In this document: positions 23,213-62,618 of the stretch, in pieces
How the letters are laid out: each line of letters opens with the position of its first letter
Numbering within the stretch: position 1 is the first letter of the stretch
Assembly (NCBI GenBank): GCA_963734845.1
Contig: CAVTIS010000004.1
Span: forward strand, 158,364-222,363
Reading direction: 5' to 3'
Source: an uncultured delta proteobacterium
GTDB taxonomy: Bacteria; Desulfobacterota; Binatia; Binatales; Binataceae
Length of the DNA stretch: 64,000 bases
Translations under genes and position numbers: made by a program
The notes under the pieces: model-generated
Databases searched by the model: none
What the model was told of the DNA's origin: nothing
The model's input: only the letters and a program-made list of their open reading frames with translations

Positions 23213-23402
23213 AAGTCGCCTGGTCACCGCACGCCTTTTGCAATTGTTACCTACGTTACTCTTTAGCCCAGCATAAGCAAGCACGCAAAGGAGCGACGGT
23301 TTCGTTCTTTGGCGGAGACGCTATTCGCTCGACGCTCGAGGCCTCAACCGTGGCACCGGCATCGCCGGTCCGCTTCTCTCGGCTTGACGCTCGCGCGAGC
23401 CG

Positions 23403-23421
23403 GATGATAATAATTATCATC
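23403..23421. promoter_or_regulatory. Fur/PerR-type operator (perfect 19-bp 9-1-9 palindrome)
   Basis: GATGATAAT-A-ATTATCATC, an AT-only perfect palindrome in a GC-rich genome, about 100 bp upstream of the rubrerythrin ATG. Confidence 0.6.
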
Positions 23422-23523
23422 TGGCCGGGCGAGCAAAATCACTTTAGAAAGCGCCGCGGCGACGCGCCGCGCGAGCTGCGCCGCCGGCCATTAACCGCGC
23501 ATACGCTCAGGGAGAGAGCAACA

Positions 23524-23940
23524 ATGAACAATCTGAAAGGAACCAAGACACACGCCAACCTTAAGGATGCCTTTGCCGGCGAGAGCCAGGCCAATCGGCG
23601 CTACCTGTACTTTGCCAAGATTGCCGACGTGGAGGGCCAGCCGGAAATCGCAGGGCTCTTCCGCGATACTGCGGAGGGCGAGACCGGGCACGCTCACGGC
23701 CATCTCGACTATCTCAAGCAGGTCGGCGATCCGGCCACTGACCAGCCGATCGGCGACAGCATGCTCAATCTAAAGTCGGCCGTCCACGGCGAGACCTACG
23801 AGTATACGAACATGTATCCCGGGATGGCGAAGACCGCTCGCGAAGAGGGTTTTACGGAGATCGCCGACTGGTTCGAGACTCTGGCCAAGGCCGAGAAGTC
23901 GCACGCCGGTCGCTTCCAGAAAGCCACCACTACGCTTTAA
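23524..23940 (+). CDS. rubrerythrin-family diiron protein (no rubredoxin domain)
   Basis: ferritin-like diiron ligand motifs E..GE...[25 protein letters not shown]...EEG; RBS GGGAGAGAG before the ATG at 23524. Confidence 0.8.
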
Positions 23941-24120
23941 CGGCGGCCGCCCTGTTAGGTCGTGGCATGCGGGCGCGCCGCGCTCGTTTGCATCTATTCG
24001 AAATTCCGGCCCGCCGGACACCGTTGGGCGTCTGGCGGGCCGGCTCGCGCGTCACCGGCCGTAGTGTACTGCCACAACCTCGATGCCGTAACTTCGACGT
24101 GCCACCCGAGAGCCGCTTAA

Positions 24121-25467
24121 ATGGAACGTATCCAGTCGCGACCGACCGACGCTCTTTCGTACAATCAAAACGAGCCCAAGTACTGGGATCGCGCGGCCCT
24201 CGACCAGGAAATCGAGCGCGTGTTCGACATCTGCGCGGGCTGTCGGCTGTGCTTCAACCTGTGCCCGTCGTTCCCGGAGCTGTTCGGGGCGCTCGATAGC
24301 GGCGACGGCGACGTGCGCAGCCTGAGCGCGGCGCACAAGCAACGCGTGATCGATCTGTGTTACGGCTGCAAGCTGTGCGAGGTGCGATGCCCATACACGC
24401 CGCACGACGGCCACGAGTTCCAGCTCGACTTCCCGCGCCTGATGCTGCGGGCGCGCGCGGTCGAAGGCCGCGAACAGGGAATCGGCATGCGCGAAAAGAT
24501 GCTGGGCAATCCGGACCGCCTGGGCAAGGTCGGGAGCATTGTGCCGAAGCTCGCCAATTGGGCCTGCCGCAGCCCTTTTCAGCGCGCGATGATGGAGAAG
24601 ATGCTCGGCATCTCGCGCGCCAAGCAACTGCCTGAGTTTGCCGGCGAAACCTTCGACGCGTGGCTACAGCGCACGGGAATTCCGGCCGCGCCGGCCGAGC
24701 CCGCGGCCAAGGTCGCCATCTTTCATACCTGCTTCGTCAACTACTACAATCCGGCGCCCGGGCGCGCGCTGGTCTCGGTGCTGGCCCGCAATCGATGCTC
24801 GATGGCGTCGCCGGCGCAGAACTGCTGCGGGATGCCGGCGCTGGACGGCGGCGACGTCGCTTTTGCGCAAAAGCTCGCGCGCGCCAACGTGGCCTCGATG
24901 CTGCCGCTGGTGCGCCAGGGCTATCGCATCGCCGCGATCAATCCGACCTGCTCGCTGATGATGCGCGCGGAATATCCGGACCTGCTCGATACCGCCGAGG
25001 GGCGCGAGCTCGCTGCGGCGGTCGTCGACCCGCACGAGCTGCTCTATGCGCTCCGGCGCGAGGGCAAATTTGACCGCGATTTTCGCACCACGCCGGGCAA
25101 GGTCGCCTATCACGTGCCGTGTCATCTCAAGGCCCAGAACGTGGGCCTGCGCTCGCGCGATCTTATCCGATCGATCCCGGGCGCGGAGGTCGTGACGGTG
25201 GACGCCTGCACGGCTCACGACGGCACCTGGGCGATGAAGAGGGAGTTTTTCGAGCTGTCGATGAAGTGGGGAGCGAAGGCCTTCGCCGGAATGAAGGACG
25301 CCGAAGCGCAGGTGTTGGCCACCGACTGTCCGCTCGCCGCGATCCAGATCGAGCAGGCCATCGGCGTGCGCCCGCTCAACCCGGTCGAGATTCTGGCGCG
25401 CGCTTACGAGGCCGACGGCTTCGCCGCGCCAGTGCCGCCGCCGGAGCCGCCCGCCGTCGAGGAGTGA
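24121..25467 (+). CDS. Fe-S oxidoreductase with two 4Fe-4S ferredoxin motifs and CCG domains (GlcF/GlpC/HdrD-like)
   Basis: CAGCRLCFNLCP and CYGCKLCEVRCP (CxxCxxCxxxCP); C-terminal Cys-rich CCG segment (NCCGMPA). Confidence 0.7.
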   Translation: MERIQSRPTDALSYNQNEPKYWDRAALDQEIERVFDICAGCRLCFNLCPSFPELFGALDSGDGDVRSLSAAHKQRVIDLCYGCKLCEVRCPYTPHDGHEFQLDFPRLMLRARAVEGREQGIGMREKMLGNPDRLGKVGSIVPKLANWACRSPFQRAMMEKMLGISRAKQLPEFAGETFDAWLQRTGIPAAPAEPAAKVAIFHTCFVNYYNPAPGRALVSVLARNRCSMASPAQNCCGMPALDGGDVAFAQKLARANVASMLPLVRQGYRIAAINPTCSLMMRAEYPDLLDTAEGRELAAAVVDPHELLYALRREGKFDRDFRTTPGKVAYHVPCHLKAQNVGLRSRDLIRSIPGAEVVTVDACTAHDGTWAMKREFFELSMKWGAKAFAGMKDAEAQVLATDCPLAAIQIEQAIGVRPLNPVEILARAYEADGFAAPVPPPEPPAVEE

Positions 25468-25471
25468 AACC

Positions 25472-26056
25472 GTGAAACCGATAACTCCCCCCGAAGTACT
25501 GCCGGTTACGACCTATGACCGCGTGCGGCCCCTGCTGCGCCCACTATGCATCGCCGAAAAGACGCGCCGTCGCCTCGCCGTCGGTCCTCATCTCACGCTG
25601 ATGTTCGAAAACCGTCAGACGGTCTGGTACCAAATCCAGGAAATCCTGCGCACCGAGCGCATCTTCGAGGAGGCCGCGGTCAACGCCGAGGTCGAGACCT
25701 ATAACGAACTTCTGCCGCGCCCGGGCGAACTCTTTGCCACCCTGCTCATCGAGTATGCGGACCCGGCCGAACGCGACGTCGAGCTTGCCCGCCTGGTGGG
25801 TCTGGAGCGCCATTTGTGGATCGTTCTTGACGGACGCCGCGTCGGCGCCCGCTTCGATGAACGCCAAATGTCGCCGGATCAGATAAGCGCGGTGCAGTTC
25901 ATCGCTTTTCCGCTGGGCGCGGAAGCCGGCCGTTTTGGAGAGCTGGCGGCAGTCGGCAAGGCCGCAATCGAAGTTGACCATCCGCATCTCTCCGTCACGG
26001 CTCCAATTGAAGGCCCACTCGCAGAGGCGCTTAGCGACGATCTGCGCCCCGATTAG
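25472..26056 (+). CDS. DUF3501-like uncharacterised protein
   Basis: about 190-aa protein immediately downstream of the CCG Fe-S gene on the same strand; DUF assignment is from memory of family context and is uncertain. Confidence 0.35.
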   Translation: MKPITPPEVLPVTTYDRVRPLLRPLCIAEKTRRRLAVGPHLTLMFENRQTVWYQIQEILRTERIFEEAAVNAEVETYNELLPRPGELFATLLIEYADPAERDVELARLVGLERHLWIVLDGRRVGARFDERQMSPDQISAVQFIAFPLGAEAGRFGELAAVGKAAIEVDHPHLSVTAPIEGPLAEALSDDLRPD

Positions 26057-26350: not shown

Positions 26351-28231
26351 ATGACCGCTATCGCCGAAAAGCTTGCCATCTGCTCTGCTGCGGCCTTCGG
26401 CCTGTCCGTCGCCCTGACGCCTGCGGCCAAGGCGCTCGCCGCGCGCTTCAACATCGTCGCCTCACCTAGCGAAGAGTCGGGCCATCCGGAACCGACGCCG
26501 GTGCTCGGCGGCGTGGCGATCGTGGTTGCCGTGATCGTGGCGCTCGGCCTTGCGGGCGAGCTGCCACTGTGGACGCTCGCCGGAATGCTGGCATTGCTGG
26601 CGGTCGGCACGCTCGACGACGTGGTCGCGTTGAAACCGTCGCACAAACTGCTTGCGCAGTTGATAGTGGTCGCGTTCTTCTTTTGGGCTTCGCCGGCCGC
26701 GCCCGAGGTCACGCGCTGGCCGCTAGTCAATCTGGGGCTGGCCGGCTTCTTCATGGTTGCCGCGATCAACGCCTTCAACCTGGTTGATGGGCTCGACGGC
26801 TTGGCCGCCGGGGTCGGAATTGCCGCGATGGGGGCAGTGGGCGTCGTCGCATGGTGGTCGCGCGACGCGGGGTTGGCATGCGGGGCATTGGCGGCCGCTG
26901 GGGCGTTGGGCGGCTTTTTGTTCTTCAACTTCTATCCGGCGTCGATTTTCATGGGCGACGGCGGCGCACTACCCATGGGTTTTTTGCTTGGAGCCCTGGC
27001 GCTGCAGGGCGCCGGGTTGCAGCGTAACTCGCATCTTTCGTGCGCGGTCTTTCCGGTGCTGGTTATGCTGGTGCCGCTGCTCGACACCGCTATTGTGACG
27101 ATGTCGCGGCTGGCCACGGGAAACCCGATTTCGCGACGCGGCCTGGACCATTCGCATCATCGTCTGCTGATGCTGGGGCTCACGGTGCGGCGCGCAGTGG
27201 TCGTCAGCTGGATGCTAGCGGCGGCAAGCGCACTGCTGGCGGCGGGCGAGAGCCTCTTGTCGCATGTTTATTTGCTGAGCGCTCTCCCCTTCGTGATCGC
27301 AGGAATCGGGGTGATTGGATTGTTCATGGTCGATCTGACTTTCGAGAATCGCGCGCCCGGCATGGACTACGGCTACTTGCAGGGCCTCGCGCGCTACCTC
27401 TTAAGCCTCGGTTACAAGCGGCGTCTGGCGGAAGCGGTGCTCGATTTCGCGCTCATTCCGGCGGCGTATTTCGGCGCCTGTCTGCTGCGGCGCGATTTCA
27501 AGCTCACTGACCCGCAGATCCTTTCGATGATGACGAGCACGCCGGTGTTTTTCGCCGCCACCTACCTCGCCTTCGTGCTGACCGGTGTTTACCGCGGAAT
27601 CTGGCGCTACGCCGGAATCGCCGACATCATTCGCTTCGCCAATGGCTCGCTGCTGGCTGGCATCCTGGTCGCGGTCACCTCGCTGTTCATCCCGATTGAG
27701 GTGTCGGGGTCCGTCGCCGTCCTGTACGTGGTGCTGCTCTTCAACCTGCTGGTGTTCACGCGCGTGTCGTTCCAGCTTCAGCGCCGCGCCCTCGGGCTGT
27801 TGGCGCTGCCGACCGAGCGGGTGCTTATAGTCGGAGCGGGCCGGATGGGCGAGGCGGCCGTGCGCTACATCTTCTCGGGCAGCGACCGGCGAATGCGGCT
27901 AGTCGGATTCGTCGACGACGATGCCTTCAAGGAAGGGAAGCTCGTTCACGGTCATCAGGTGCTCGGCCCGCTCGACGAACTGGCCCGGACCTACACGGCC
28001 ACGGGCTTTCATCGGATTCTTATCGCCGCCGACGCGATCGGCGAGGAACGTCTTGCGCTAGTCAAGGCATTCGCCGATGCTCATGATCTGCCGCTCCAGC
28101 GCTTCTCGATCGAAGTCAACGAATTCGTGCCGATCGTCGCTGGCGACAACAATGGCCGTGGCACGGGCGAAGATAACGCTGCAGTCATCGAAGCGCCTGC
28201 GCCCGCTGTCGTGCGGCCTTCGATCGCTTGA
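26351..28231 (+). CDS. glycosyltransferase family 4 (WecA/MraY-like polyprenyl-phosphate HexNAc-1-P transferase) fused to a C-terminal TM + Rossmann/CoA-binding-like domain
   Basis: GTLDDVVALKP, NAFNLVDGLDGLAAG, FMGDGGALPMG, DHSHHRL (GT4 motifs); C-terminal VLIVGAGRMGEAAVRY...LVGFVDDD resembles the N-terminal module of WbaP/CapD-type proteins. Confidence 0.7.
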   Translation: MTAIAEKLAICSAAAFGLSVALTPAAKALAARFNIVASPSEESGHPEPTPVLGGVAIVVAVIVALGLAGELPLWTLAGMLALLAVGTLDDVVALKPSHKLLAQLIVVAFFFWASPAAPEVTRWPLVNLGLAGFFMVAAINAFNLVDGLDGLAAGVGIAAMGAVGVVAWWSRDAGLACGALAAAGALGGFLFFNFYPASIFMGDGGALPMGFLLGALALQGAGLQRNSHLSCAVFPVLVMLVPLLDTAIVTMSRLATGNPISRRGLDHSHHRLLMLGLTVRRAVVVSWMLAAASALLAAGESLLSHVYLLSALPFVIAGIGVIGLFMVDLTFENRAPGMDYGYLQGLARYLLSLGYKRRLAEAVLDFALIPAAYFGACLLRRDFKLTDPQILSMMTSTPVFFAATYLAFVLTGVYRGIWRYAGIADIIRFANGSLLAGILVAVTSLFIPIEVSGSVAVLYVVLLFNLLVFTRVSFQLQRRALGLLALPTERVLIVGAGRMGEAAVRYIFSGSDRRMRLVGFVDDDAFKEGKLVHGHQVLGPLDELARTYTATGFHRILIAADAIGEERLALVKAFADAHDLPLQRFSIEVNEFVPIVAGDNNGRGTGEDNAAVIEAPAPAVVRPSIA

Positions 28232-28404
28232 CGAGATGCCTTTGGGGGGTAAACGCCCCGGCGGGCGTCGGCGAGCCTGTTTGCCGGGCAGACTGGTGCG
28301 CCTTGCCATCCTCTGGCATTGTAGGAGGAGCGGCGCTACCGGATGTGGTGCCTAGACGTCTAAGATGACGTCAAGACGAGCGCCTGAAAGGGGCTGCAAC
28401 AGTC

Positions 28405-28767
28405 ATGAGTCGCGCGCGCAAGCCGGTCAAAATTGTGCCTAAAGGGTGGGGTCGCGAGGTATGGATCGTCAATGGCGAACTCTACTGCGGCAAAATCCTT
28501 GAGATTCGCAAGGGCAAGCGCTGCTCGCTACATTTTCACAAGCTCAAGACCGAGTCGTTCTACTTGCGCGCGGGCCGGCTCAAGGTGCGCGTTAAGGAAT
28601 CGCCGGACTCCGAAGTAATCGAGGAGTTCGAACTCACGGCTGGTGAGTGCATGGACGTTCCGCTCGGCCTGGTGCACCAAATGGAAGCGCTTGAGGACGC
28701 CGAGTTGTTCGAGTTCTCCACCCAGCACTTCGAGAGCGATTCGCATCGTCTCGTGCCCGGCGACTAA
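28405..28767 (+). CDS. cupin-domain protein (phosphomannose isomerase type II C-terminal-like)
   Basis: PKGWGREVWIVNGELYCGKILEIRKGKRCSLHFHKLKTESFYL resembles the PMI/ManC cupin. Confidence 0.55.
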   Translation: MSRARKPVKIVPKGWGREVWIVNGELYCGKILEIRKGKRCSLHFHKLKTESFYLRAGRLKVRVKESPDSEVIEEFELTAGECMDVPLGLVHQMEALEDAELFEFSTQHFESDSHRLVPGD

Positions 28768-28794
28768 ACGGCGCTGGCGGACACAGGAAAATCG

Positions 28795-29811
<1,017 letters not shown>

Positions 29812-29956: not shown

Positions 29957-30535
29957 ATGGCTGAGCGGAGACGCAGATTTTCGGCTTTCATGGTGCGCGG
30001 CGGTCTCGCGCGCCACTCGCTTAACGACGAGAGCGCGGCCTTCCCGGAGAGCTTCGCGCTCACGCGGCTGCACGACGCCGTGCAGTGGGCGCGCAAGTAT
30101 TCCTTTTTCACCTACCCGTTCGTGACCGCGTGTTGCGGGATGGAATATTTCTCGGTCGCCGGCCCGCGCTACGACATCGACCGCTTCGGTGCGGCATTGC
30201 CGCGGTTCACTCCGCGCCAGGCCGATCTGTTGTTCGTGGTCGGCACCATCACGCAGCGCCAGGCGCCGATCCTGCGCCGCGTGTGGGAGCAGATGGCGGA
30301 GCCAAAATGGGTGGTATCGTTCGGCGCCTGCACCAGTTCGGGCGGCCCCTACGACAACTACGCTGTGCTACAGGGCATCGACCGCATCATTCCGGTCGAC
30401 GTCTACATTCCCGGATGTCCGCCGCGCCCCGAGGCCGTCCTCGACGGCCTGATCAAGCTGCAGTACCGCGTCCAGAACGAACGTCAGCCTCAACTGTGGT
30501 CCAGTCTCCATGGCAGCGGACGCAAGCTCGACTAA
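29957..30535 (+). CDS. nuoB: NADH-quinone oxidoreductase subunit B
   Basis: N2 cluster motifs CCGMEYF, GACTSSGGPYD, IPGCPPRPE. Confidence 0.9.
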   Translation: MAERRRRFSAFMVRGGLARHSLNDESAAFPESFALTRLHDAVQWARKYSFFTYPFVTACCGMEYFSVAGPRYDIDRFGAALPRFTPRQADLLFVVGTITQRQAPILRRVWEQMAEPKWVVSFGACTSSGGPYDNYAVLQGIDRIIPVDVYIPGCPPRPEAVLDGLIKLQYRVQNERQPQLWSSLHGSGRKLD

Positions 30536-32177
30536 CCCCCCCAAGGCCAACGCCCCTAGCGCTCCTAGCGCCCCGAAGACCGCGAAGCTCACGGTCGACG
30601 GCCGCGCGATCGAAGCGCCCGAGGGCACGCCGCTGTTGCAGGCGATGCTCGATGCGGGAATCGACCTCCCGCACTACTGCTACCATCCCAAGCTCAGCAT
30701 CGACGGCAGTTGCCGCCTTTGCCAGGTCAAGATCGAGGGGATGCCGAAGCTTCAGATTTCCTGCAACACCCAGGTGCGCGACGGGATGGTCGTGCATACG
30801 GCGGACCCGGAGGTCGCGCTGGCACGCCGCGGCGTGCTCGAGCTGCTCCTGATCAACCATCCGCTGGATTGCCCGATCTGCGACAAGGCCGGAGAGTGCT
30901 GGCTGCAAAACTACGCGATGCGCTTTGGGAGCCGCCATGCGCGTACGCTCGATCCGCGGCGCAAGCATGAGAAAAGGCTGGACATCGGCGAGCGTATGCT
31001 GCTCGACCAGGAACGATGCATCCTGTGCCGGCGCTGTGTTCGCTTTTGCCGCGAGATCAGCAAGACCGGCGAGCTCGCCGTTTTCAACCTTGGCGACCGC
31101 TCGGTGCTCGACGTCTATGACCGCCGCCTAGACAATGACTACTCCATCTGCACCGCCGACATCTGCCCGGTCGGCGCACTCGAAAGCAAGGACTTCCATC
31201 ATCGCATCCGGGTCTGGTTTCTCCAGGAGACCGCCAGCGTTTGTCCCGGTTGTTCCAACGGCTGCAACATCATGATCTCGGAGTATCGCAATCGCATCTG
31301 GCGGCTGATCCCGCGCCGCAACGACGCGGTCAACGACACCTGGATGTGCGACCAGGGGCGTTTGGACTATAAGTTCGTCGATGCATCCGAGCGCTTGCGG
31401 GCGCCGATGGTCGAGGAGAATGGCGCGCTTGCCCCGACCACGTGGGAGGAGGCGCTGGCGCGGGCCTCAGCTGCGATCGCGGCGCTCAAAGAGCGCCACG
31501 GCGACGGCGCGATGGGCGCGGTCGTCTCGCCCCATCTCACCGTCGAGGAGAATTTTCGCTTCGGCGAGTTCTTGCGCGCAGCTGGCGCGGGCAAGAGCGC
31601 GATGGCGGTGCGGCGCGGGCCCGCCGACGACTTCCTGATCAAGGCCGAGAAAGCGGCCAACGCGCGCGGCGTGCGCGAGCTGGGCCTGGTGAGCGGCAGT
31701 GACGACGGGCTCGGCGAGCTGTTGCGGGCCGTGGAAGCCGGCGAGCTCAAGGGACTCTACCTTTGCGGTGACGATGTTCTTGAGACGCTTGCCCCCGAAC
31801 GTCTCACGGCAATTCTGGGAAGGCTCGAACTCTTGATTGTGCAGACGCTCAAGCTCGACCAGCGCCTGGGCGCGGCCGCCGTGGTGTTTCCCACCACGGC
31901 CTTCGCCGAGAAGGACGGTTCGTTTGTCAACCACGCCGGGCGCGTGCAGCGCATTTATAAGGCGATCGAAACGGCGCCGGGATGGCTCAGCGACGGTGAG
32001 ATTTTCACGCGCTTGCTCAACGCTATCGACCCCAGCGATCGCCGCTTCGATCCTGATGCGATGTGGGAGCCGATATGCCGCGCGCATTCGCGCTTCGCCG
32101 GGCTTTCGCTGGACTCCCTCGGAGCTAGTGGCGCGATGCCTAACGGCGCGGGCGTGCAGGGCACAAGCGACCGTTGA
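30510..32177 (+). CDS. nuoG: NADH-quinone oxidoreductase subunit G, short form (555 aa)
   Basis: 2Fe-2S (CYHPKLSIDGSCRLCQV), HPLDCPICDKAGEC, CILCRRCVRFC, CPVGAL Fe-S motifs plus a truncated molybdopterin-like domain; 26-nt overlap with nuoB. Confidence 0.8.
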   Translation: MAADASSTNPPKANAPSAPSAPKTAKLTVDGRAIEAPEGTPLLQAMLDAGIDLPHYCYHPKLSIDGSCRLCQVKIEGMPKLQISCNTQVRDGMVVHTADPEVALARRGVLELLLINHPLDCPICDKAGECWLQNYAMRFGSRHARTLDPRRKHEKRLDIGERMLLDQERCILCRRCVRFCREISKTGELAVFNLGDRSVLDVYDRRLDNDYSICTADICPVGALESKDFHHRIRVWFLQETASVCPGCSNGCNIMISEYRNRIWRLIPRRNDAVNDTWMCDQGRLDYKFVDASERLRAPMVEENGALAPTTWEEALARASAAIAALKERHGDGAMGAVVSPHLTVEENFRFGEFLRAAGAGKSAMAVRRGPADDFLIKAEKAANARGVRELGLVSGSDDGLGELLRAVEAGELKGLYLCGDDVLETLAPERLTAILGRLELLIVQTLKLDQRLGAAAVVFPTTAFAEKDGSFVNHAGRVQRIYKAIETAPGWLSDGEIFTRLLNAIDPSDRRFDPDAMWEPICRAHSRFAGLSLDSLGASGAMPNGAGVQGTSDR

Positions 32178-32267
32178 AGCGCTTGCCGTTAGACGATCAA
32201 TTGACGCACTCTGTGCTTGCGAACCGGCATCTGATGCCGGCAAAAAGCCGCAGGGGGGCGAAGAATA

Positions 32268-33668
32268 ATGGCGACCGCAGCGGTTTCTGAAGCGGGTGGC
32301 CTCAAGGGCTACCTCGCGACCCATCGCACCCTCGAGACTTATCCGGTCGGCGCACATCGCTGGGCCATGCTGATGCTCACGGTGCTCGCGACGATCGTCT
32401 CGTTCTACGAATTCCAGTTCGCGCCGCTGTTGCCGCTGTGGATGCCGGCGCTGCATTTCAGCCTGGACGACTTCGGCTGGTTTTTGTTGTTCGCGGTACT
32501 GCTCTCGGGCGGTTCGGCGATGATCGGCGGGCCGCTTGCCGATCGTCACGGCCGTATCATCATCATCGACGTGTGCCTCGCGATCATCATCGTATTGACC
32601 TTTGCCAATCTCCTGATGACCGGGTTCTGGTCGTTCGTGATCGTTCGCGGTGCGATGAATCTGACGGCGGGGCTGATGTGGGGTGCGCTCGGGGGCCTCA
32701 CCCGCGATATGTCGCCGCGCGTCAGCCGCGGCGCGGCCTTCGGCCTGCTTACGGTTGGCGCGGTCGGCTGCATCTTCCTGTGGAATTTCATCAGCGGCGA
32801 GACGCTACCGCTTTTCCATAACGCATGGCAGTCACAGATCTGGATCATGGGGATCCTGGCGATCGTCATGTACATCCCCGTTCTGCTGTGGCTCAAGGAT
32901 TTGCATCCAAACCTGCGCCTGACCATCGTCGAGAGCGAAGCGACGGTCGCCGCCGCTCCGGCCGAGCATATGCGCGAGGCGGCGATGAAAGTTCCGGCCA
33001 GCGGAAGCGCAGCCTTCAGGGAGTTGCTCGGCCGTTGGGAGGTGTGGGTCCTGGTGGTCGGGTCGGTGGCCTTCCTGACGCTGCCGATCACCAGCCAGAC
33101 GTTTTTCCCGGTGATGTTCACCGGCGCATTCCATTACACTCCGGCCGCGGCGGCCAAGATGGCGTCGTACTTCTGGCTGCTCAACCTGTTCATGCTGGTG
33201 CCGGCCGGCTTGCTCTCGGACAAGCTGCGGGTGCGCAAACCGCTGGTGTTGATTGGCGACGTCGCCGCTCTGGTGGCGCTGGTCTGGTGGATTGGAACGT
33301 TCTCCAATCCATTGCCGCCGTTTCAGTTGGCGACGATGATGTTTGTGCTCGGCGGCCTGGTCGCCTTCGCCTTCATCCCCTGGTGCGCGCAATATTCGGA
33401 ACTGCTCGAAGACATCTCGCCCGCGCTGCAGGCGAGCGGATGGTCATTCTTTCAGTTGATTTACCGCGGCTGGATCGCCATCTCGGGGACTATTGTCACG
33501 CACGTTTCGCATCGCTACGGATGGGCGGCATGGATGTGGGTGGCCGCCGCGGGTATGGCGATGCTTATTCCCGCGATGCTCTCGGTGCGCGGCGGATGGC
33601 TGCCGGCCAAGGCCGGACAGGGCTCAGATGGGCATGCGGCGCCCACCGTGCGGCCATCGCCCGCGTAG
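32268..33668 (+). CDS. MFS transporter
   Basis: about 12 hydrophobic segments; MFS signature GGPLADRHGRI between TM2 and TM3. Confidence 0.7.
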   Translation: MATAAVSEAGGLKGYLATHRTLETYPVGAHRWAMLMLTVLATIVSFYEFQFAPLLPLWMPALHFSLDDFGWFLLFAVLLSGGSAMIGGPLADRHGRIIIIDVCLAIIIVLTFANLLMTGFWSFVIVRGAMNLTAGLMWGALGGLTRDMSPRVSRGAAFGLLTVGAVGCIFLWNFISGETLPLFHNAWQSQIWIMGILAIVMYIPVLLWLKDLHPNLRLTIVESEATVAAAPAEHMREAAMKVPASGSAAFRELLGRWEVWVLVVGSVAFLTLPITSQTFFPVMFTGAFHYTPAAAAKMASYFWLLNLFMLVPAGLLSDKLRVRKPLVLIGDVAALVALVWWIGTFSNPLPPFQLATMMFVLGGLVAFAFIPWCAQYSELLEDISPALQASGWSFFQLIYRGWIAISGTIVTHVSHRYGWAAWMWVAAAGMAMLIPAMLSVRGGWLPAKAGQGSDGHAAPTVRPSPA

Positions 33669-33736
33669 GCCAAATCTGTAAAACTGATCCTGAAAATTGA
33701 ACCTGCACGACTTGTACAACGGATAGTTAAAGCGAG

Positions 33737-34270
33737 ATGGCGATTCGAATAGTAAAGGTTGCACGGCCGGCGCCAAGCCTGGTCGGGCCGTACTCGCTGC
33801 GGGCGGTGCTGGTGGGACTGTGGGTCGCGTCGGCCCATCTGCTGCGCAACCTCTTCGGCTTCATGCGCGGGCGGCAGGACTTCACCGTGTATTTTCCCGA
33901 GCAGCGCTTCGTGCAGCCGCCGGCTATGCGCGGGATGCCGGTGCTGGTGCAAATGGAAAGCGGCAAGGAGCGATGCGTCGCGTGCGGGCTATGCGAATGG
34001 GCCTGCCCCACCACCTGCATCACGATCTTTCCGGCCGAGACCGTCGACGAGGTCGAACGTTACCCCGAGATTTTCGACATCGATATGTCGCGCTGCATGT
34101 TTTGCGGGTTGTGCGAAGAGGCCTGCCCCGAAGAGGCGATCGTGATGAGCCGCGAGGTCGAAATCGCAACCTACTCGCGCCGCGGCTCGCTCTGGCACAA
34201 GGCCGATCTGCTGGTGCCGCAGGATCGTCTCAAAACCCGAACCGACTTTCTGCGCGGCCACTATGAATAA
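33737..34270 (+). CDS. nuoI: NADH-quinone oxidoreductase subunit I
   Basis: two 4Fe-4S motifs CVACGLCEWACP and CMFCGLCEEACP. Confidence 0.9.
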   Translation: MAIRIVKVARPAPSLVGPYSLRAVLVGLWVASAHLLRNLFGFMRGRQDFTVYFPEQRFVQPPAMRGMPVLVQMESGKERCVACGLCEWACPTTCITIFPAETVDEVERYPEIFDIDMSRCMFCGLCEEACPEEAIVMSREVEIATYSRRGSLWHKADLLVPQDRLKTRTDFLRGHYE

Positions 34271-34276
34271 GGACCG

Positions 34277-34930
34277 ATGAGCGCCCCCGAAGAACCAAAA
34301 ACGCCCCCGCCGCCCGAGCCTTCCGCGTTGTTGCAAAAGGTGATCGCGCGGCTTGGCCCGCTGCTTGCGGAGCATCAGAGCTTTCGCGGCGACGACTGCG
34401 TCCACGTCGCGCGCGAGCATATTCTCGAAGTCGCGCGCGCGCTGCGTGACTCGCCCGAGCTTGGCTTCGACCTGCTGCTCGACGTCACCTGCGTCGATTA
34501 CTTCGGCCAGCTCGACGGTTTCAAGAACGCTCCCGAAATCTGGGATCGCAATCGCAACCTGGTGCGCAAGCGCGCCGAGTGGCGCCATCGCGTCAACATG
34601 CCCGCGCGCGGTGACGCGCCGCGCTTCGCCGTGGTCTATCATCTGGTCTCCACTCGCCTGCTCCATCGCTTGCGCGTGAAATGCCGGGTGCCGGAAGACA
34701 ATCCGGTGATCGCTAGCCTGAGCGGCCTATGGTCCGGCGCCAACTGGCTGGAGCGCGAAACCTTCGACCTCTACGGTATCCGCTTCGATGGCCATCCAGA
34801 CCTCCGCCGCATCTATCTCTACGACGAATTCGTAGGCCATCCACTGCGCAAAGACTACGCCAAACACGACGAACAACCGATTGAACCTTATGCCGGACCT
34901 GGAGCCCAAGAACCCCGTCGTCCCAACTGA
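34277..34930 (+). CDS. nuoC: NADH-quinone oxidoreductase subunit C (30 kDa)
   Basis: FDLLLDVTCVDYF...ERETFDLYGIRFDGHPDLRRI typical of NuoC. Confidence 0.85.
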   Translation: MSAPEEPKTPPPPEPSALLQKVIARLGPLLAEHQSFRGDDCVHVAREHILEVARALRDSPELGFDLLLDVTCVDYFGQLDGFKNAPEIWDRNRNLVRKRAEWRHRVNMPARGDAPRFAVVYHLVSTRLLHRLRVKCRVPEDNPVIASLSGLWSGANWLERETFDLYGIRFDGHPDLRRIYLYDEFVGHPLRKDYAKHDEQPIEPYAGPGAQEPRRPN

Positions 34931-36128
34931 CCCGTCGTCCGCCGATTCGTCGCGCGATCTGCAAACGCCGCTGATGCGGATGCAGATGGGCCCGTCGCAT
35001 CCGGCGACTCACGGCACGGTCAAGATGGTGCTCGACCTCGACGGCGAACGCGTGGTCAAAGCTGACATCCAGGTCGGCTATCTCCATCGCGGCTTCGAGA
35101 AAGAATGCGAGACCGGATACTACTACCAGAACATCCCATACACCGACCGGCTGAACTACAGCTCGCCGATGCTCAACAACGTCGGTTACTGCCTCGCGGT
35201 CGAGAAGCTGATGGATCTGCGCACGCCGCCGCGCTGCGATTTCATCCGGGTGATTGCGGGCGAGATCTCGCGCATGAGCGACCATTATCTGTGCCTGGGT
35301 GCGATGGCGCTCGAGCTGGCGGCGATGACCCCGTTTCTGTACCTGCTCGAGGCGCGCGAGCTGATGTGCGATTTGCTCGACGCGCTTTGCGGCGCGCGCG
35401 TCACCACCAACTACATCCGCATCGGTGGCGTTTCGGCCGACCTGCCCCAGGGCTTCGATCGCTTCGCCGCCGAGCGCCTGGATCGCTCACTCGTTCTGCT
35501 CGGCGACGCCGACAAACTGCTCACGCAAAATCCGGTGTTTCGCGATCGCGTCGAGGGTACCGGCCATCTGGCGCCCGAAACGCTAATCGCGCAGGGCGTG
35601 ACCGGCCCGCTGCTCCGCGCCGGCGGCGTGGCCTACGACGTGCGCCGCGTGCAGCCATATCTCGTGTACGGAGAGTTGGACTTTGACGTCCCGGTAGGCG
35701 AGCACAGCGACAACTTCGACCGCTACCTGGTGCGCCTGGAAGAAGTGCGCCAGAGCCGCCGCATGATCGCGCAATGCTTCGAGAAAATTCCCGCCGGGCC
35801 CGTTAACTCCGACGACCCCCGCGTGCGCTGGCCGCGCAAGGGCCAGGTGTTCGGCCGGATGGAAGAATTGATCGACCAGTTCAAGCTGGTCACCGAGGGC
35901 GGCCTCATCCCGCCGGGCGAGGTCTATCACGCGGTCGAAGGCGCCAACGGCGAGCTGGGTTTTTATATCGTAAGCGACGGCACCGGAAAGCCGTACAAGT
36001 GCCGATGCCGCGCGCCGAGCTTCTCCAATATGTCGGCATTGGAAAAGATGATCACCGGCGGGATGCTGGCCGACGTGGTGCCGACCTTCGACTTGATCAA
36101 CATGATCGGCGGCGAGTGCGACCGTTAG
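34881..36128 (+). CDS. nuoD: NADH-quinone oxidoreductase subunit D (49 kDa)
   Basis: GPSHPATHGTVKMVLDLDGERV...GYLHRGFEKECE; no NiFe-binding Cys; start may be an internal Met (overlaps the nuoC end). Confidence 0.9.
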   Translation: MNLMPDLEPKNPVVPTDPSSADSSRDLQTPLMRMQMGPSHPATHGTVKMVLDLDGERVVKADIQVGYLHRGFEKECETGYYYQNIPYTDRLNYSSPMLNNVGYCLAVEKLMDLRTPPRCDFIRVIAGEISRMSDHYLCLGAMALELAAMTPFLYLLEARELMCDLLDALCGARVTTNYIRIGGVSADLPQGFDRFAAERLDRSLVLLGDADKLLTQNPVFRDRVEGTGHLAPETLIAQGVTGPLLRAGGVAYDVRRVQPYLVYGELDFDVPVGEHSDNFDRYLVRLEEVRQSRRMIAQCFEKIPAGPVNSDDPRVRWPRKGQVFGRMEELIDQFKLVTEGGLIPPGEVYHAVEGANGELGFYIVSDGTGKPYKCRCRAPSFSNMSALEKMITGGMLADVVPTFDLINMIGGECDR

Positions 36129-36167
36129 GGCGCCGTCGCCGCGACAACCGCCTGAGCATGAAATACG

Positions 36168-37958
36168 ATGGCCTTGTCGGCTGAAACGCAGGAAAAGATC
36201 CGCGCCGAGCAGGCGCGCTTTCCCAATCCGCGCGGCGCGTTGCTCGCCGCGATCTATCTCGCGCGCGACGACCTCGGTGCGCTGGGCCCTGAGGCCTTTG
36301 CCGAACTTGCGCCGCTATTCGGCATGCGAGCCAACGAGGTCGCCGAAGTCGCCTCGTTCTACTCGCTCTTCAATCTGCCCCGTGCGCAGGCGGTAATTCA
36401 GGTTTGCACCAATCTGCCGTGCTGCCTGCGTGGCGCGCGCGGCGTGGTGCGCGAGCTTGAGCATCGGCTCGGTATTAAGGCCGGCACTGCTACACCCGAC
36501 GGCCGCTTCGCGATCGCAGAAGTCGAATGCCTCGGCTCATGCGCGACCGCGCCGGTCGTGCAGGTGAACCGCAATCCGTATCTGGAAAACGTAACGCCGG
36601 AGTTGGCGGCAACCCTGCTTGAATCGCCGGACGCGGCGCGCGCGGCGCGCCGCCCCGCGCCGGTCATCTCGCACGTTCCCGACGGCGTCGAGGGATACCT
36701 GCTGCCGCGCGGGGACGAGAAATGGCTGACGCTAGAGGAATATCGCGCGCACGGCGGCTTCAAGGCGGCTCCCAAGGCGGGCGCGATGACGCCCAAGGAC
36801 CTCGCGACACTGGTGAAGGACTCCAACCTTCGCGGACGCGGCGGCGCCGGTTTCGTCACCGGACTTAAGTGGACGTTCATGCCGCCGCGCGACGCGCGTC
36901 CGCGCTACCTCGCGGTCAATGCCGACGAGAGCGAGCCCGGCACCTTCAAGGACCGCCAGATCATGTCGCGCAATCCGTTCCTGCCGCTGGAGGGAATCAT
37001 GATCGCCGCGATGGCGATGGAGTCCACCGCCGCCTTCATCTACATCCGCGGCGAATACGTCGAGGAATTCGCGGCGATGAGCGCGGCGATCCGCTCGCTC
37101 TACGAAGCGAAAATTCTCGGCGACAACGCGCTCGGCTTCAACCGCCGCTTCGACATCACCATCCAGCAGGGCGCCGGTGCGTACATCTGCGGCGAGGAGA
37201 GCGGGATGCTGGAATCGATGGAAGGGCGCAAGGGACAGCCGCGCAAGCGCCCGCCCTTTCCCGCGCAGGCGGGATTGTGGGGCCAGCCGACCACGGTCGA
37301 CAACGTCGAAACGCTCTCGCACGTGCCGGTGATCGTGATGCGCGGCGCGCAATGGTTCCTGGATGAAGGAGTCAAGAACGCCGCCGGCCACACGCTGTTC
37401 GGCGTGAGCGGCCACGTCAACAATCCGGGAATTTTCGAGCTTCGGCTCGGCGTCAAGCTGCGCGATCTCATCTATCAGCACGCCGGCGGAGTTATCGGCG
37501 GACGGCCGATCAAGGCGATCATTCCGGGCGGCGTCTCGATGCCGGTGCTGCGCGGCGACCAGATCGACGTCGCGATGGATCACGAATCGTTGCGCGCGGC
37601 CGGCACGCTTATCGGCACCGGCGGGGCGATCGTGATGGACGATCGTACCTGCATGGTCCGCACGGCGCTGGTAGTGGCGCGTTTTTTCGAGCACGAGTCG
37701 TGTGGCCAGTGCACCCAGTGCCGCGAGGGCACCGGCTGGACATATAAGACGCTGCGCCGGATCGAAAGCGGCGGAGGCGAACCGCAGGATCTTCAGACCC
37801 TGGCCGACACTTTTGATTTCATGGACGGCAAATGCATCTGCGCGCTCGCCGACGGCGCGTCATGGGCGGCGCGCGCGTTTCTCAAACAGTTTCGCGCCGA
37901 CTTTGAGGCCCACATCACGGAGCACCGATGCCCCTTTCCGGAGAGTTTCGAGGTATGA
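36168..37958 (+). CDS. nuoEF: fused NADH-quinone oxidoreductase subunits E (24 kDa) and F (51 kDa)
   Basis: N-terminal NuoE 2Fe-2S cysteines (CTNLPCC...ECLGSC); C-terminal NuoF NADH/FMN motifs (RGRGGAGFVTGLKW, NADESEPGTFKDR, ICGEESGMLESMEG) in one 596-aa ORF. Confidence 0.85.
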   Translation: MALSAETQEKIRAEQARFPNPRGALLAAIYLARDDLGALGPEAFAELAPLFGMRANEVAEVASFYSLFNLPRAQAVIQVCTNLPCCLRGARGVVRELEHRLGIKAGTATPDGRFAIAEVECLGSCATAPVVQVNRNPYLENVTPELAATLLESPDAARAARRPAPVISHVPDGVEGYLLPRGDEKWLTLEEYRAHGGFKAAPKAGAMTPKDLATLVKDSNLRGRGGAGFVTGLKWTFMPPRDARPRYLAVNADESEPGTFKDRQIMSRNPFLPLEGIMIAAMAMESTAAFIYIRGEYVEEFAAMSAAIRSLYEAKILGDNALGFNRRFDITIQQGAGAYICGEESGMLESMEGRKGQPRKRPPFPAQAGLWGQPTTVDNVETLSHVPVIVMRGAQWFLDEGVKNAAGHTLFGVSGHVNNPGIFELRLGVKLRDLIYQHAGGVIGGRPIKAIIPGGVSMPVLRGDQIDVAMDHESLRAAGTLIGTGGAIVMDDRTCMVRTALVVARFFEHESCGQCTQCREGTGWTYKTLRRIESGGGEPQDLQTLADTFDFMDGKCICALADGASWAARAFLKQFRADFEAHITEHRCPFPESFEV

Positions 37959-38359
37959 GCGCCGACCGGCCGGCCCGCAACGCGATCGTCGCTATCCTCG
38001 GCACGCCCGACCGAACCGAGGGCAGCCTCGACGATCCGCGCGAGCGTGAAGAAGACGGCGTGCGCTTCAACGAGAAATGGATCTATACGCATCTGCGCCG
38101 CGATCCGGCGGGCGCCGCGATGCGCACGGTTTACTGGATGCGCTACGATTTTCGCGGTACCGCCGTGCGTAACAACGAGGCGGAACCTTGGCGGCCCGAC
38201 ACCGCACTCGTCGAGGCCGCCGCGAAACGCGACGACCGTCTCCCGCCGCTCGATCCGTCGCGCAATCCGCAGCTTGCGCCTAGCACCAGGTATCGTCCAG
38301 TCTCGGATTTTACCGGCGTGTCCGACCTCGGCGGCGAAATCCAGGAAAAAAAATCCTGA
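37955..38359 (+). CDS. hypothetical protein (about 134 aa)
   Basis: ATG overlaps the nuoEF stop (GTATGAGC); charged, non-membrane protein with no recognisable motif. Confidence 0.4.
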   Translation: MSADRPARNAIVAILGTPDRTEGSLDDPREREEDGVRFNEKWIYTHLRRDPAGAAMRTVYWMRYDFRGTAVRNNEAEPWRPDTALVEAAAKRDDRLPPLDPSRNPQLAPSTRYRPVSDFTGVSDLGGEIQEKKS

Positions 38360-51927: not shown

Positions 51928-58666
<6,739 letters not shown>

Positions 58667-62601: not shown

Positions 62602-62618
62602 GCGGCTCGAGCGCGGCG

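What the first reader, a model, noticed from the sequence alone, without database searches (positions are those of the whole stretch)
29957..37958. Complex-I gene cluster encoding only peripheral-arm subunits in a non-canonical order (B-G-MFS-I-C-D-EF); no nuoA/H/J-N
All seven hydrophilic subunits are present and tightly linked, with overlaps or short gaps of 6-90 nt. The order is scrambled relative to the canonical nuoA-N order. nuoA is absent upstream, where gmd sits. None of the membrane-arm genes (nuoH, J, K, L, M, N) follow; instead the region ends in a coupled orphan ORF and then esterases on the opposite strand. Either the membrane arm is encoded elsewhere, or this is a distinct complex-I-derived module.
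Basis: partly seen in the sequence, partly recalled or inferred. Interest (0 to 1): 0.65.

Follow-up and report, generated by a model that had tools for sequence, protein, structure and literature searches.

The report
Split complex I peripheral-arm operon
A soil bacterium of the uncultured class Binatia keeps all the water-soluble parts of respiratory complex I in one reshuffled operon, with an inserted transporter gene and a small unknown coupled gene, while the membrane parts are almost certainly encoded elsewhere: an unusual gene layout, not a new enzyme.

Summary
Window 29957-38359 (+) holds nuoB, a short nuoG, an MFS transporter, nuoI, nuoC, nuoD, a fused nuoE-F and a small coupled ORF ("orfX"). 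No nuoA/H/J-N lies anywhere in the 64 kb. The organism is a Candidatus Binataceae MAG.

In about 46 complete species-level loci the order B-G-(MFS)-I-C-D-E/F-orfX is conserved, and no membrane-arm gene lies within 10 kb in any of 87 related loci. All cofactor ligands and the NuoD His/Tyr quinone ligands are invariant, so this is a working canonical peripheral arm.

The MFS gene is a single insertion in one sub-clade, not a core part. The E-F fusion is also derived.

A published survey states that all complex I subunits are encoded in all Binatota genomes. Related myxobacteria are already known to split and reorder nuo genes (nuoEFJKLMN plus nuoIHGDBA). The best reading is therefore a lineage-wide split nuo gene set. 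I could not locate the membrane-arm genes directly.

The least ordinary element is orfX. It belongs to a tiny family with no Pfam match and no PDB relative, and it is fused ATGA-style to the nuoEF stop in 46 loci. It is a candidate accessory subunit or assembly factor.

Verdict: new variant of a known kind, modest interest.

The parts
29990..30535 (+). nuoB (N2 cluster subunit). The ORF opens at 29957; gene callers start at 29990 (181 aa).
   Evidence: PF01058 3e-26; NF005012 208 bits (cutoff 116); TIGR01957 201 bits (cutoff 143). CCGME / GACTSSGG / GCPP cluster ligands are present, and these motifs are found in all 43 orthologues (GACTSSGG in 40, GNCT variants in 3). Gene call.
30510..32177 (+). 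Short nuoG (555 aa). It has the N1b, N5, N4 and N7-type Cys/His motifs and a reduced FdhH-like C-terminal domain. It overlaps nuoB by 26 nt.
   Evidence: Pfam Fer2_4, NADH-G_4Fe-4S_3, Fer4_Nqo3, Molybdop_Fe4S4 and Molybdopterin. TIGR01973 412 bits, below the 470 cutoff. PDB: residues 9-364 match complex I 75-kDa subunits at 2.6e-78, and the C-terminus matches FdhH. Motifs were read from the translation.
32268..33668 (+). MFS transporter (466 aa) of unassigned subfamily: a lineage-specific insertion between nuoG and nuoI.
   Evidence: PF07690 2.4e-25; no NCBIfam subfamily anywhere near its cutoff. It sits at this position in 26 loci that form one clade of the NuoD tree and is absent from 20 other Binatia clusters. 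A 51%-identical paralogue is not linked to nuo genes.
33737..34270 (+). nuoI (N6a/N6b ferredoxin subunit).
   Evidence: NF004536 2e-36; TIGR01971 112.2 bits (cutoff 113.05). A CxxCxxCxxxCP motif is present in all 61 orthologues (CVACGLCEWACP in 48, two close variants in 13).
34277..34930 (+). nuoC (30-kDa subunit).
   Evidence: PF00329 1.1e-42; TIGR01961 132 bits (cutoff 122).
34890..36128 (+). nuoD (49-kDa quinone-site subunit). It overlaps nuoC by 41 nt.
   Evidence: NF004739 469.5 bits (cutoff 360); TIGR01962 461.7 bits (cutoff 459.35). Full-length alignment to NDUFS2 (373 bits) and T. thermophilus Nqo4 (337 bits). A GP.HP..HG motif (GPSHPATHG in 55 of 61) and DRLNY (61 of 61) are present in all orthologues.
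36168..37958 (+). nuoE-nuoF fusion (596 aa): N1a, FMN/NADH site and N3.
   Evidence: PF01257 1e-35, PF01512 7e-42, PF10589 3e-27. NF010120 477.6 bits (cutoff 389). One ORF in 50 loci; separate adjacent nuoE and nuoF in the deepest Binatia clade. GGAGF is present in 50 of 50 and CGQCTQC in 49 of 50.
37955..38359 (+). orfX: a 134-aa conserved hypothetical protein whose start overlaps the nuoEF stop (ATGA). It is a candidate accessory subunit or assembly factor.

Best explanation
This is the complete hydrophilic (peripheral) arm of an ordinary proton-pumping NADH:quinone oxidoreductase (complex I) of a Candidatus Binataceae bacterium. It is encoded as one operon whose order has been reshuffled: B-G-[MFS]-I-C-D-EF-orfX. 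The seven membrane subunits (NuoA, H, J, K, L, M, N) are encoded at one or more other loci in the same genome, so this is a lineage-wide split nuo gene set.

Mechanism, inferred from the conserved ligands:
- NADH is oxidised at the FMN of the NuoF part of the NuoE-F fusion.
- Electrons pass through N3, then the NuoG clusters, then the two NuoI clusters, to N2 in NuoB.
- They then reduce quinone held by the conserved His/Tyr pair of NuoD, at the interface with a separately encoded NuoH. The quinone is probably menaquinone.
- Proton pumping is done by the separately encoded antiporter-like subunits.

The MFS gene is a passenger that entered the operon once in a Binataceae sub-clade and is co-oriented with it. 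Its substrate is unknown.

orfX is made in step with NuoEF by translational coupling. It is most likely a lineage-specific accessory subunit or assembly chaperone of the peripheral arm.

Shown here: gene content, order, conservation, ligand conservation and coupling. Inferred: assembly with a membrane arm, and the roles of orfX and the MFS.
For: - Family assignments, with equivalog-level scores for NuoD and NuoF.
- NuoD aligns end to end with mitochondrial NDUFS2 and T. thermophilus Nqo4.
- The NuoG N-terminal 360 aa matches complex I 75-kDa subunits.
- The N2, N6, N3 and FMN motifs and the NuoD His-loop and Tyr motifs are conserved in all 43-61 orthologous clusters examined. This points to strong purifying selection on an NADH-to-quinone path whose quinone pocket needs NuoH.
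- The same cluster occurs in about 46 complete species-level Binatia loci with different flanks, so it is a stable inherited operon, not a fragment.
- No membrane-arm gene lies within 10 kb in any of 87 loci. In nine sister-group loci the genes are scattered even further, as I-C-D-orfX only. Dispersal of nuo genes is therefore the norm in this part of the tree.
- Murphy et al. 2021: 'All subunits of complexes I ... were encoded in all genomes' of Binatota.
- Myxobacteria have syntenic split clusters nuoEFJKLMN and nuoIHGDBA (PMC2330069).
- 'Many examples' of two or three dispersed complex I clusters are reported (PMC3144371), and 'split' operons such as that of Bdellovibrio are described (PMC4758237).
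- The MFS is monophyletic and nested in the NuoD tree.
- The E-F fusion is derived.
Against: - I never saw the membrane-arm genes of this organism or of any Binatia genome. Only 64 kb of this genome, and 10 kb either side of the cluster in the relatives, could be read.
- The published statement that all subunits are present is a one-line, HMM-based summary, not a per-gene table.
- NuoG (412 vs 470), NuoE (124 vs 142) and NuoI (112.2 vs 113.05) score below the NCBIfam cutoffs of their best nuo models, so the N-module is somewhat atypical.
- NuoD carries D->N, T->A and D->E changes next to the quinone ligands.
- I could not determine whether this cluster is the genome's only copy of nuoB/C/D/I/E/F/G.
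Confidence: 0.78

Rival explanations
1. An extra peripheral-arm isoform. Under this reading, Binatia genomes also carry a complete canonical nuoA-N operon, and this cluster encodes a second, alternative hydrophilic arm. That arm would either dock on the same membrane arm under particular conditions or be a redundant duplicate.
For: - Many bacteria carry two or more complex I gene sets, and at least one shares a single nuoEFG between two sets of the remaining genes (Spero 2015).
- Anaeromyxobacter has three clusters.
- One MAG (JBOHWF01) yielded two loci with a nuoEF-orfX junction, L043 and L048.
- I could not count nuoD copies per genome.
Against: - Sequence conservation is that of a core housekeeping enzyme: NuoB 70-98% and NuoD 58-96% identity across the loci, with all ligands invariant.
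- All 120 best NuoD relatives in 5.8 billion proteins are orthologues at 68% identity or more, and every named one is Binataceae or Binatales. The context is the same peripheral-only cluster in the two examined.
- The two-locus MAG may simply be a mixed bin.
Confidence: 0.14
2. A stand-alone complex-I-derived module. The seven hydrophilic subunits, plus orfX, would work without the canonical membrane arm. The module could be a soluble NADH dehydrogenase/diaphorase, or it could be attached to another membrane partner such as the co-encoded MFS protein.
For: - No membrane-arm gene lies within 10 kb in 87 loci.
- A membrane protein (the MFS) is embedded in the operon in 26 loci.
- A private small subunit candidate, orfX, is coupled to the module.
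- NuoG is truncated.
Against: - The MFS is absent from 20 Binatia clusters and from the sister group, so the core module does not need it.
- The quinone-ligating His and Tyr of NuoD and the tandem-Cys N2 site are invariant, and the full-length NuoD architecture is canonical. In solved structures these features function at the NuoH interface (established knowledge).
- Published gene inventories report all complex I subunits in Binatota.
- Related myxobacteria with equally scrambled clusters have complete sets.
Confidence: 0.06
3. A decaying remnant of a broken nuo operon (pseudogenised relic) or an assembly artefact.
For: Some long-read assemblies show split NuoD, NuoG or NuoEF gene calls (L002, L003, L008, L026, L046, L054).
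Against: - The window and most short-read and long-read assemblies have intact ORFs.
- The frameshifts differ between assemblies of near-identical DNA, so they are sequencing errors.
- Order and ligands are conserved over about 46 complete loci from different species.
Confidence: 0.02

Closest known systems
Myxobacterial split complex I gene sets (Anaeromyxobacter dehalogenans, Myxococcus xanthus, Stigmatella aurantiaca): clusters nuoEFJKLMN and nuoIHGDBA (Thomas et al. 2008, PMC2330069)
   Same: - A neighbouring lineage: the NuoD sister group in my tree is labelled Myxococcota.
- The nuo genes are split into separate, reordered, syntenically conserved clusters.
- nuoG has moved in among the Q-module genes.
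- NuoD shares the D86N and T135A type substitutions listed for Myxococcales.
   Different: - The partition differs. Here every hydrophilic gene is in one cluster and every membrane gene is absent from it. Myxobacteria mix them: EF sit with J-N, and H and A sit with the Q-module.
- Here E and F are fused.
- An MFS gene and orfX are included.
Canonical 14-gene nuoA-N / nqo1-14 operon (E. coli, Thermus thermophilus, Paracoccus)
   Same: The same seven hydrophilic core subunits with all cofactor ligands, including an N7-type motif in NuoG as in E. coli and Thermus. NuoD aligns full-length at 277-337 bits.
   Different: - Gene order is B-G-I-C-D-EF instead of A-B-C-D-E-F-G-H-I-...
- No membrane genes are in the cluster.
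- NuoG is about 120-350 aa shorter.
- E and F are fused.
Eleven-subunit 'partial' complex I operons lacking nuoEFG (Moparthi & Hagerhall 2011, PMC3144371; Spero et al. 2015, PMC4453560)
   Same: These show that the complex I modules can be encoded and inherited separately.
   Different: This is the opposite partition. Those operons keep the Q- and P-modules together and lack the N-module. This cluster keeps N and Q together and lacks P.
Lineage-specific extra hydrophilic subunits of bacterial complex I, e.g. Thermus Nqo15 (frataxin-like; cited in PMC1959517 abstract) and the NDUFS4/S6/A12 homologues of Paracoccus (own knowledge)
   Same: orfX is a small soluble protein genetically tied to the peripheral arm. 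Its predicted helix / beta-sheet / helix layout recalls small accessory subunits.
Rhodothermus marinus nqo operons, which contain non-complex-I genes including a cation/proton antiporter (own knowledge; my literature search, did not retrieve the paper)
   Same: A precedent for a transporter gene co-transcribed inside a split complex I operon.
   Different: A different transporter family and a different partition of the nuo genes.

Membership tests
Respiratory complex I (NDH-1, 14-subunit type), peripheral arm | NuoF with an FMN/NADH site and an N3 cluster; NuoE with N1a | tested here: met
   NF010120 477.6 bits (cutoff 389). PF01512, PF10589 and PF01257 all match. GGAGF and CGQCTQC are conserved in 50 and 49 of 50 loci.
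Respiratory complex I (NDH-1, 14-subunit type), peripheral arm | NuoG with N1b, N4 and N5 ligands | tested here: met
   The Cys/His motifs were read in the translation. Pfam Fer2_4, NADH-G_4Fe-4S_3 and Fer4_Nqo3 match. The best PDB hits are complex I 75-kDa subunits. The whole-protein score is below the TIGR01973 cutoff (412 vs 470) because the C-terminal domain is short.
Respiratory complex I (NDH-1, 14-subunit type), peripheral arm | NuoB with tandem-Cys N2 ligation; NuoI with two 4Fe-4S motifs | tested here: met
   CCGME, a G.C...GG motif (GACTSSGG in 40 of 43) and GCPP are present in all 43 loci. The NuoI CxxCxxCxxxCP motif is present in 61 of 61 loci. NF005012 scores 208 bits (cutoff 116).
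Respiratory complex I (NDH-1, 14-subunit type), peripheral arm | NuoD without NiFe ligands and with the quinone-binding His (beta1-beta2 loop) and Tyr | tested here: met
   NF004739 469.5 bits (cutoff 360). GPSHPATHG and DRLNY align with the His and Tyr of NDUFS2, and these motifs are present in 61 of 61 loci. Membrane-bound hydrogenase and FHL large subunits score only 118-121 bits.
Respiratory complex I (NDH-1, 14-subunit type), whole enzyme | Membrane subunits NuoA, H, J, K, L, M, N encoded in the same genome | not testable with these tools
   They are absent from the 64-kb window and from 10 kb either side of the cluster in 87 loci. The rest of the genomes could not be read. The literature states that all subunits are present in all Binatota genomes.
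Canonical nuoA-N operon architecture | Single cluster in the order A-B-C-D-E-F-G-H-I-J-K-L-M-N | tested here: not met
   The order is B-G-(MFS)-I-C-D-EF-orfX with no membrane genes, conserved across Binatia.
Soluble NuoEFG-type diaphorase modules (Hox, Fds, HydABC) | Only NuoE/F/G-like subunits, joined to a hydrogenase or formate dehydrogenase catalytic subunit | tested here: not met
   The full Q-module (B, C, D, I) is present. The NuoG C-terminus is a short remnant. No hydrogenase or Fdh catalytic gene is in the cluster.
Major facilitator superfamily | MFS_1 profile match above the gathering score | tested here: met
   PF07690 89.6 bits (cutoff 33.4). No subfamily model comes near its cutoff (best 39.7 bits against 395), so the substrate is unassigned.
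Known complex I accessory subunits or assembly factors (Nqo15/frataxin-like, NDUFS4, NDUFS6, NDUFA12), considered for orfX | Sequence or fold similarity to one of these families | tested here: not met

The most novel reading that the evidence does not exclude
The Binatia hydrophilic arm (NuoB-G-I-C-D-EF plus the private small protein orfX) is a self-contained complex-I-derived enzyme that does not use the canonical NuoA/H/J-N membrane arm. It would be either soluble or docked to a different membrane partner. It would then be a new kind of complex I derivative: a 'peripheral-arm-only' NADH dehydrogenase.
Probability: 0.06. Interest if true: 0.8.

Novelty: new variant of a known kind. Interest (0 to 1): 0.35.

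Why it matters
If the split-operon reading is right, the finding has three modest uses.

- It documents a clean genetic separation of the complex I hydrophilic arm (N- plus Q-module) from the membrane arm, conserved across a whole uncultured class. It adds a further pattern to the myxobacterial and cyanobacterial examples of dispersed nuo genes. It also warns annotation pipelines that require co-localised nuoA-N (as in Spero et al. 2015) that they may treat the dispersed Binatia nuo genes as not co-localised.
- It gives a natural series for operon evolution: E and F separate, then E-F fused, then the MFS inserted.
- It flags orfX as a cheap, testable candidate for a new bacterial complex I accessory subunit or assembly factor. 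orfX is a roughly 80-aa core domain restricted to Binatia and some Myxococcota-like MAGs, and it is translationally coupled to nuoEF or nuoD.

None of this changes how complex I is thought to work.

Tried and rejected
- **Membrane-arm genes near the cluster.** tblastn with E. coli NuoA/H/J/K/L/M/N against the window and 87 loci (1.42 Mb) gave zero hits. The E. coli peripheral baits gave 50-134 HSPs each as a positive control.
- **Extending the window.** Exact look-up of the edge proteins found no record.
- **Finding a Binatia NuoH.** This was not possible. All three protein-database searches went to the MFS, NuoD and orfX, and the single genome-contig scan went to orfX. I considered a metagenome-contig scan with a NuoH bait or a degenerate PFDxPEAE DNA pattern and rejected it. 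The 80 loci returned would probably be relatives of the bait, and I guessed that Binatia make up well under 1% of NuoH sequences, so the expected yield was about 0.1 locus.
- The afdb50 library was unavailable.
- **The MFS as a replacement membrane anchor.** Rejected as the core explanation, because 20 Binatia clusters and the sister group lack it.
- **Rfam on the window.** No hits.
- **Promoter and terminator scan.** No promoter-like sites, and terminator-like sites at chance level, so it was uninformative.
- **Cluster names for distant orfX relatives.** None carry an organism name.

Full report
**What is in the window**

ORF listing and profile searches show eight co-oriented genes on the + strand:
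- nuoB, 29957/29990-30535
- a short nuoG, 30510-32177 (555 aa)
- an MFS transporter, 32268-33668
- nuoI, 33737-34270
- nuoC, 34277-34930
- nuoD, 34881/34890-36128
- a single 596-aa nuoE-nuoF fusion, 36168-37958
- a small ORF with no family, here called orfX

Spacings between successive genes are -26, 90, 68, 6, -41, 39 and -4 nt.

NuoD and NuoF pass NCBIfam equivalog cutoffs (469.5 vs 360 and 477.6 vs 389). NuoB and NuoC pass their subfamily cutoffs. NuoI, NuoE and NuoG fall just or moderately below theirs.

Upstream lie a GT4 glycosyltransferase, a cupin-like ORF and gmd. Downstream lie two esterases on the opposite strand.

tblastn with E. coli NuoA/H/J/K/L/M/N finds nothing in the 64 kb. 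The E. coli peripheral subunits hit at 1e-22 to 1e-107.

**Whose genome it is**

The identical locus is found on four ENA long-read contigs of 437-626 kb and in NCBI MAG GCA_936415795.1. Homologues of the MFS, NuoD and orfX that carry names are all 'Candidatus Binataceae' or 'Binatales'. The source is an uncultured soil Binatia (phylum Binatota) bacterium.

**Is the arrangement a one-off?**

No. Context look-ups and a scan of GTDB species-representative genomes with an orfX alignment (75 loci) were annotated locally by tblastn.
- Every complete Binatia locus has B-G-(MFS)-I-C-D-E/F-orfX, with different flanking genes.
- Nine loci labelled mostly Myxococcota, which form the sister group in a NuoD tree, carry only I-C-D-orfX. 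In one of them this follows 2-oxoacid dehydrogenase and lipoate genes.
- None of the 87 loci (1.42 Mb including the window) contains a membrane-arm gene within 10 kb.

**Which parts are core**

A neighbour-joining tree of NuoD places the 26 MFS-bearing clusters in one clade, nested among 20 MFS-less Binatia clusters. The MFS gene therefore entered once between nuoG and nuoI and has been kept there. It is not part of the ancestral module. A 51%-identical paralogue sits in an unrelated context.

The E-F fusion is likewise derived. It is one ORF in 50 loci, but nuoE and nuoF are separate adjacent genes in the deepest Binatia clade. Apparent splits in a few long-read assemblies are frameshift errors.

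**Is it a working complex I arm?**

All the diagnostic motifs are present, and they are conserved in every one of the 43-61 orthologous clusters examined:
- NuoB: CCGME, a G.C...GG motif (GACTSSGG in 40 of 43) and GCPP (the N2 site)
- NuoI: CxxCxxCxxxCP
- NuoF: GGAGF (50 of 50) and CGQCTQC (49 of 50)
- NuoE: a CxxxxC motif
- NuoD: a GP.HP..HG motif (GPSHPATHG in 55 of 61) and DRLNY

NuoD aligns over its full length with human NDUFS2 (373 bits) and T. thermophilus Nqo4 (337 bits). The quinone-ligating His and Tyr are in place. Neighbouring positions carry D->N, T->A and D->E changes. The first two are substitutions that Degli Esposti lists for Myxococcales NuoD.

NuoG keeps the N1b, N5, N4 and N7-type ligands. 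Its first 360 residues match complex I 75-kDa subunits, and the remainder is a short FdhH-like remnant.

Membrane-bound hydrogenase and FHL large subunits score far lower against NuoD (118-121 bits). So this is a canonical NADH-to-quinone electron path. In solved structures its quinone pocket is completed by NuoH (established knowledge).

**Where is the membrane arm?**

I could not see it directly, and this is the main gap. The indirect evidence is as follows.
- Murphy et al. 2021 state that all subunits of complex I were encoded in all Binatota genomes analysed (mBio supplement and preprint).
- In the related myxobacteria, the 14 genes lie in two syntenic, reordered clusters, nuoEFJKLMN and nuoIHGDBA (Thomas et al. 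2008).
- Moparthi and Hagerhall note 'many examples' of two or three dispersed complex I clusters.
- Degli Esposti defines 'split' operons, for example in Bdellovibrio.
- In the sister group found here the nuo genes are scattered further still.

Together with the invariant quinone site, this makes a lineage-wide split nuo gene set the best explanation (about 0.78). Two alternatives remain open. One is an extra isoform beside a full operon (about 0.14). The other is a stand-alone module without the canonical membrane arm (about 0.06). A single search of the full MAGs would settle the question.

**orfX**

The small trailing ORF is the least ordinary element.
- Its conserved core is about 80 aa: RN-IV--LGTP--TEGS-N-PRE-EE-G--FNEKW-Y...R-IYW-RYDF-G.
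- It has no Pfam or NCBIfam match.
- The family comprises 573 proteins, all named 'hypothetical'. It forms only 82 clusters at 50% identity among 1.84 billion representatives. None comes from a named cultured organism.
- Its start codon overlaps the nuoEF stop by 4 nt (ATGA, GTGA in a few) in 46 loci, including the window at 37955. In the I-C-D-orfX loci it overlaps the nuoD stop. This pattern is typical of translational coupling.
- AlphaFold2 with 36 homologues gives a confident model (pLDDT 83). It has a small helix, a six-strand sheet, a second helix and a disordered tail.
- In three other Binatia loci (L056, L061, L066) orfX has no nuo gene within 10 kb. In L056 it lies between ligA and an aconitase gene.

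I infer a lineage-specific accessory subunit or assembly factor of the peripheral arm. This is untested.

**Comparison with what is known, and verdict**

The enzyme is a member of the complex I family by every feature that could be tested. It fails only the 'canonical operon' feature, which is not a defining property of the enzyme.

The gene layout is a new variant of the already documented split and shuffled nuo arrangements. The partition is clean (N plus Q together, P elsewhere). It comes with an E-F fusion, a truncated NuoG, an inserted MFS gene and a private coupled small protein.

A specialist would find this a tidy comparative-genomics note rather than a surprise. orfX is the one lead worth an experiment. 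Interest 0.35.

Noticed in passing
window 23350-26056 (+); also L007 4406-7432, L008 1059-3597, L011 1270-4470: A rubrerythrin / HdrD-like Fe-S protein with CCG domains / DUF3501 trio lies next to the nuo cluster in the window. It recurs beside the cluster, often with a Fur-family regulator, in distant Binatia loci. In the window lineage it is separated from nuoB by an inserted GT4-cupin-gmd sugar-nucleotide block (26351-29811). This is a conserved neighbourhood of unknown meaning.
   Followed up: partly
L079 3-7703; L010 13985-17369: 2-oxoacid dehydrogenase complex genes (E1 alpha/beta, E2, E3) lie directly beside the nuo/orfX cluster in a Myxococcota-labelled locus (there with lipoate ligase/synthase genes) and in a Binatia locus. 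This may be a recurrent link between NADH producers and the NADH dehydrogenase, or a coincidence.
   Followed up: no
L056 10001-10309; L061, L066 (same position): In three Binatia loci from other lineages (L056 is HRbin30), orfX homologues stand alone with no nuo gene within 10 kb. In L056, orfX lies between NAD-dependent DNA ligase and aconitase genes. The neighbours in L061 and L066 were not annotated.
   Followed up: partly
L043 and L048 (MAG JBOHWF01); L049 and L053 (MAG JBOHWM01): Two MAGs each gave two orfX loci. In L043 the contig edge still shows a nuoEF stop overlapping orfX, so that bin may hold two peripheral-arm clusters or be a mixture of strains. L053 is a longer orfX paralogue without nuoEF upstream.
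   Followed up: no
L002, L003, L008, L019, L026, L046, L054: Long-read (Microflora Danica type) assemblies show NuoD, NuoG, MFS or NuoEF broken into two or three frames at different places in near-identical DNA. These are homopolymer-type assembly errors, not pseudogenes.
   Followed up: yes
window 51928-55134 (-): One 1068-aa ORF combines an IS110-family transposase domain (residues 56-141) with a sulfatase domain (315-730). Most likely these are two genes read through by the mechanical ORF caller, or an insertion next to a sulfatase gene.
   Followed up: no
window 55151-58666 (-): A single 1171-aa protein carries biotin carboxylase, biotin-carrier and carboxyltransferase domains: a fused, single-chain acyl-CoA carboxylase.
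   Followed up: no
window 60595-62901 (-): A 768-aa ORF has no Pfam hit at all. Exact look-up found no gene call with this product in the public collection.
   Followed up: no
window 34890-36128 (NuoD residues near the quinone ligands): All 61 orthologues have DRLNY, with N where most complex I has D. The window protein also has A and E where NDUFS2 has T156 and D160. The D->N and T->A changes occupy positions that Degli Esposti 2015 links to natural resistance to myxobacterial quinone-site antibiotics. This may reflect shared ancestry with Myxococcota or life in the same soils.
   Followed up: partly
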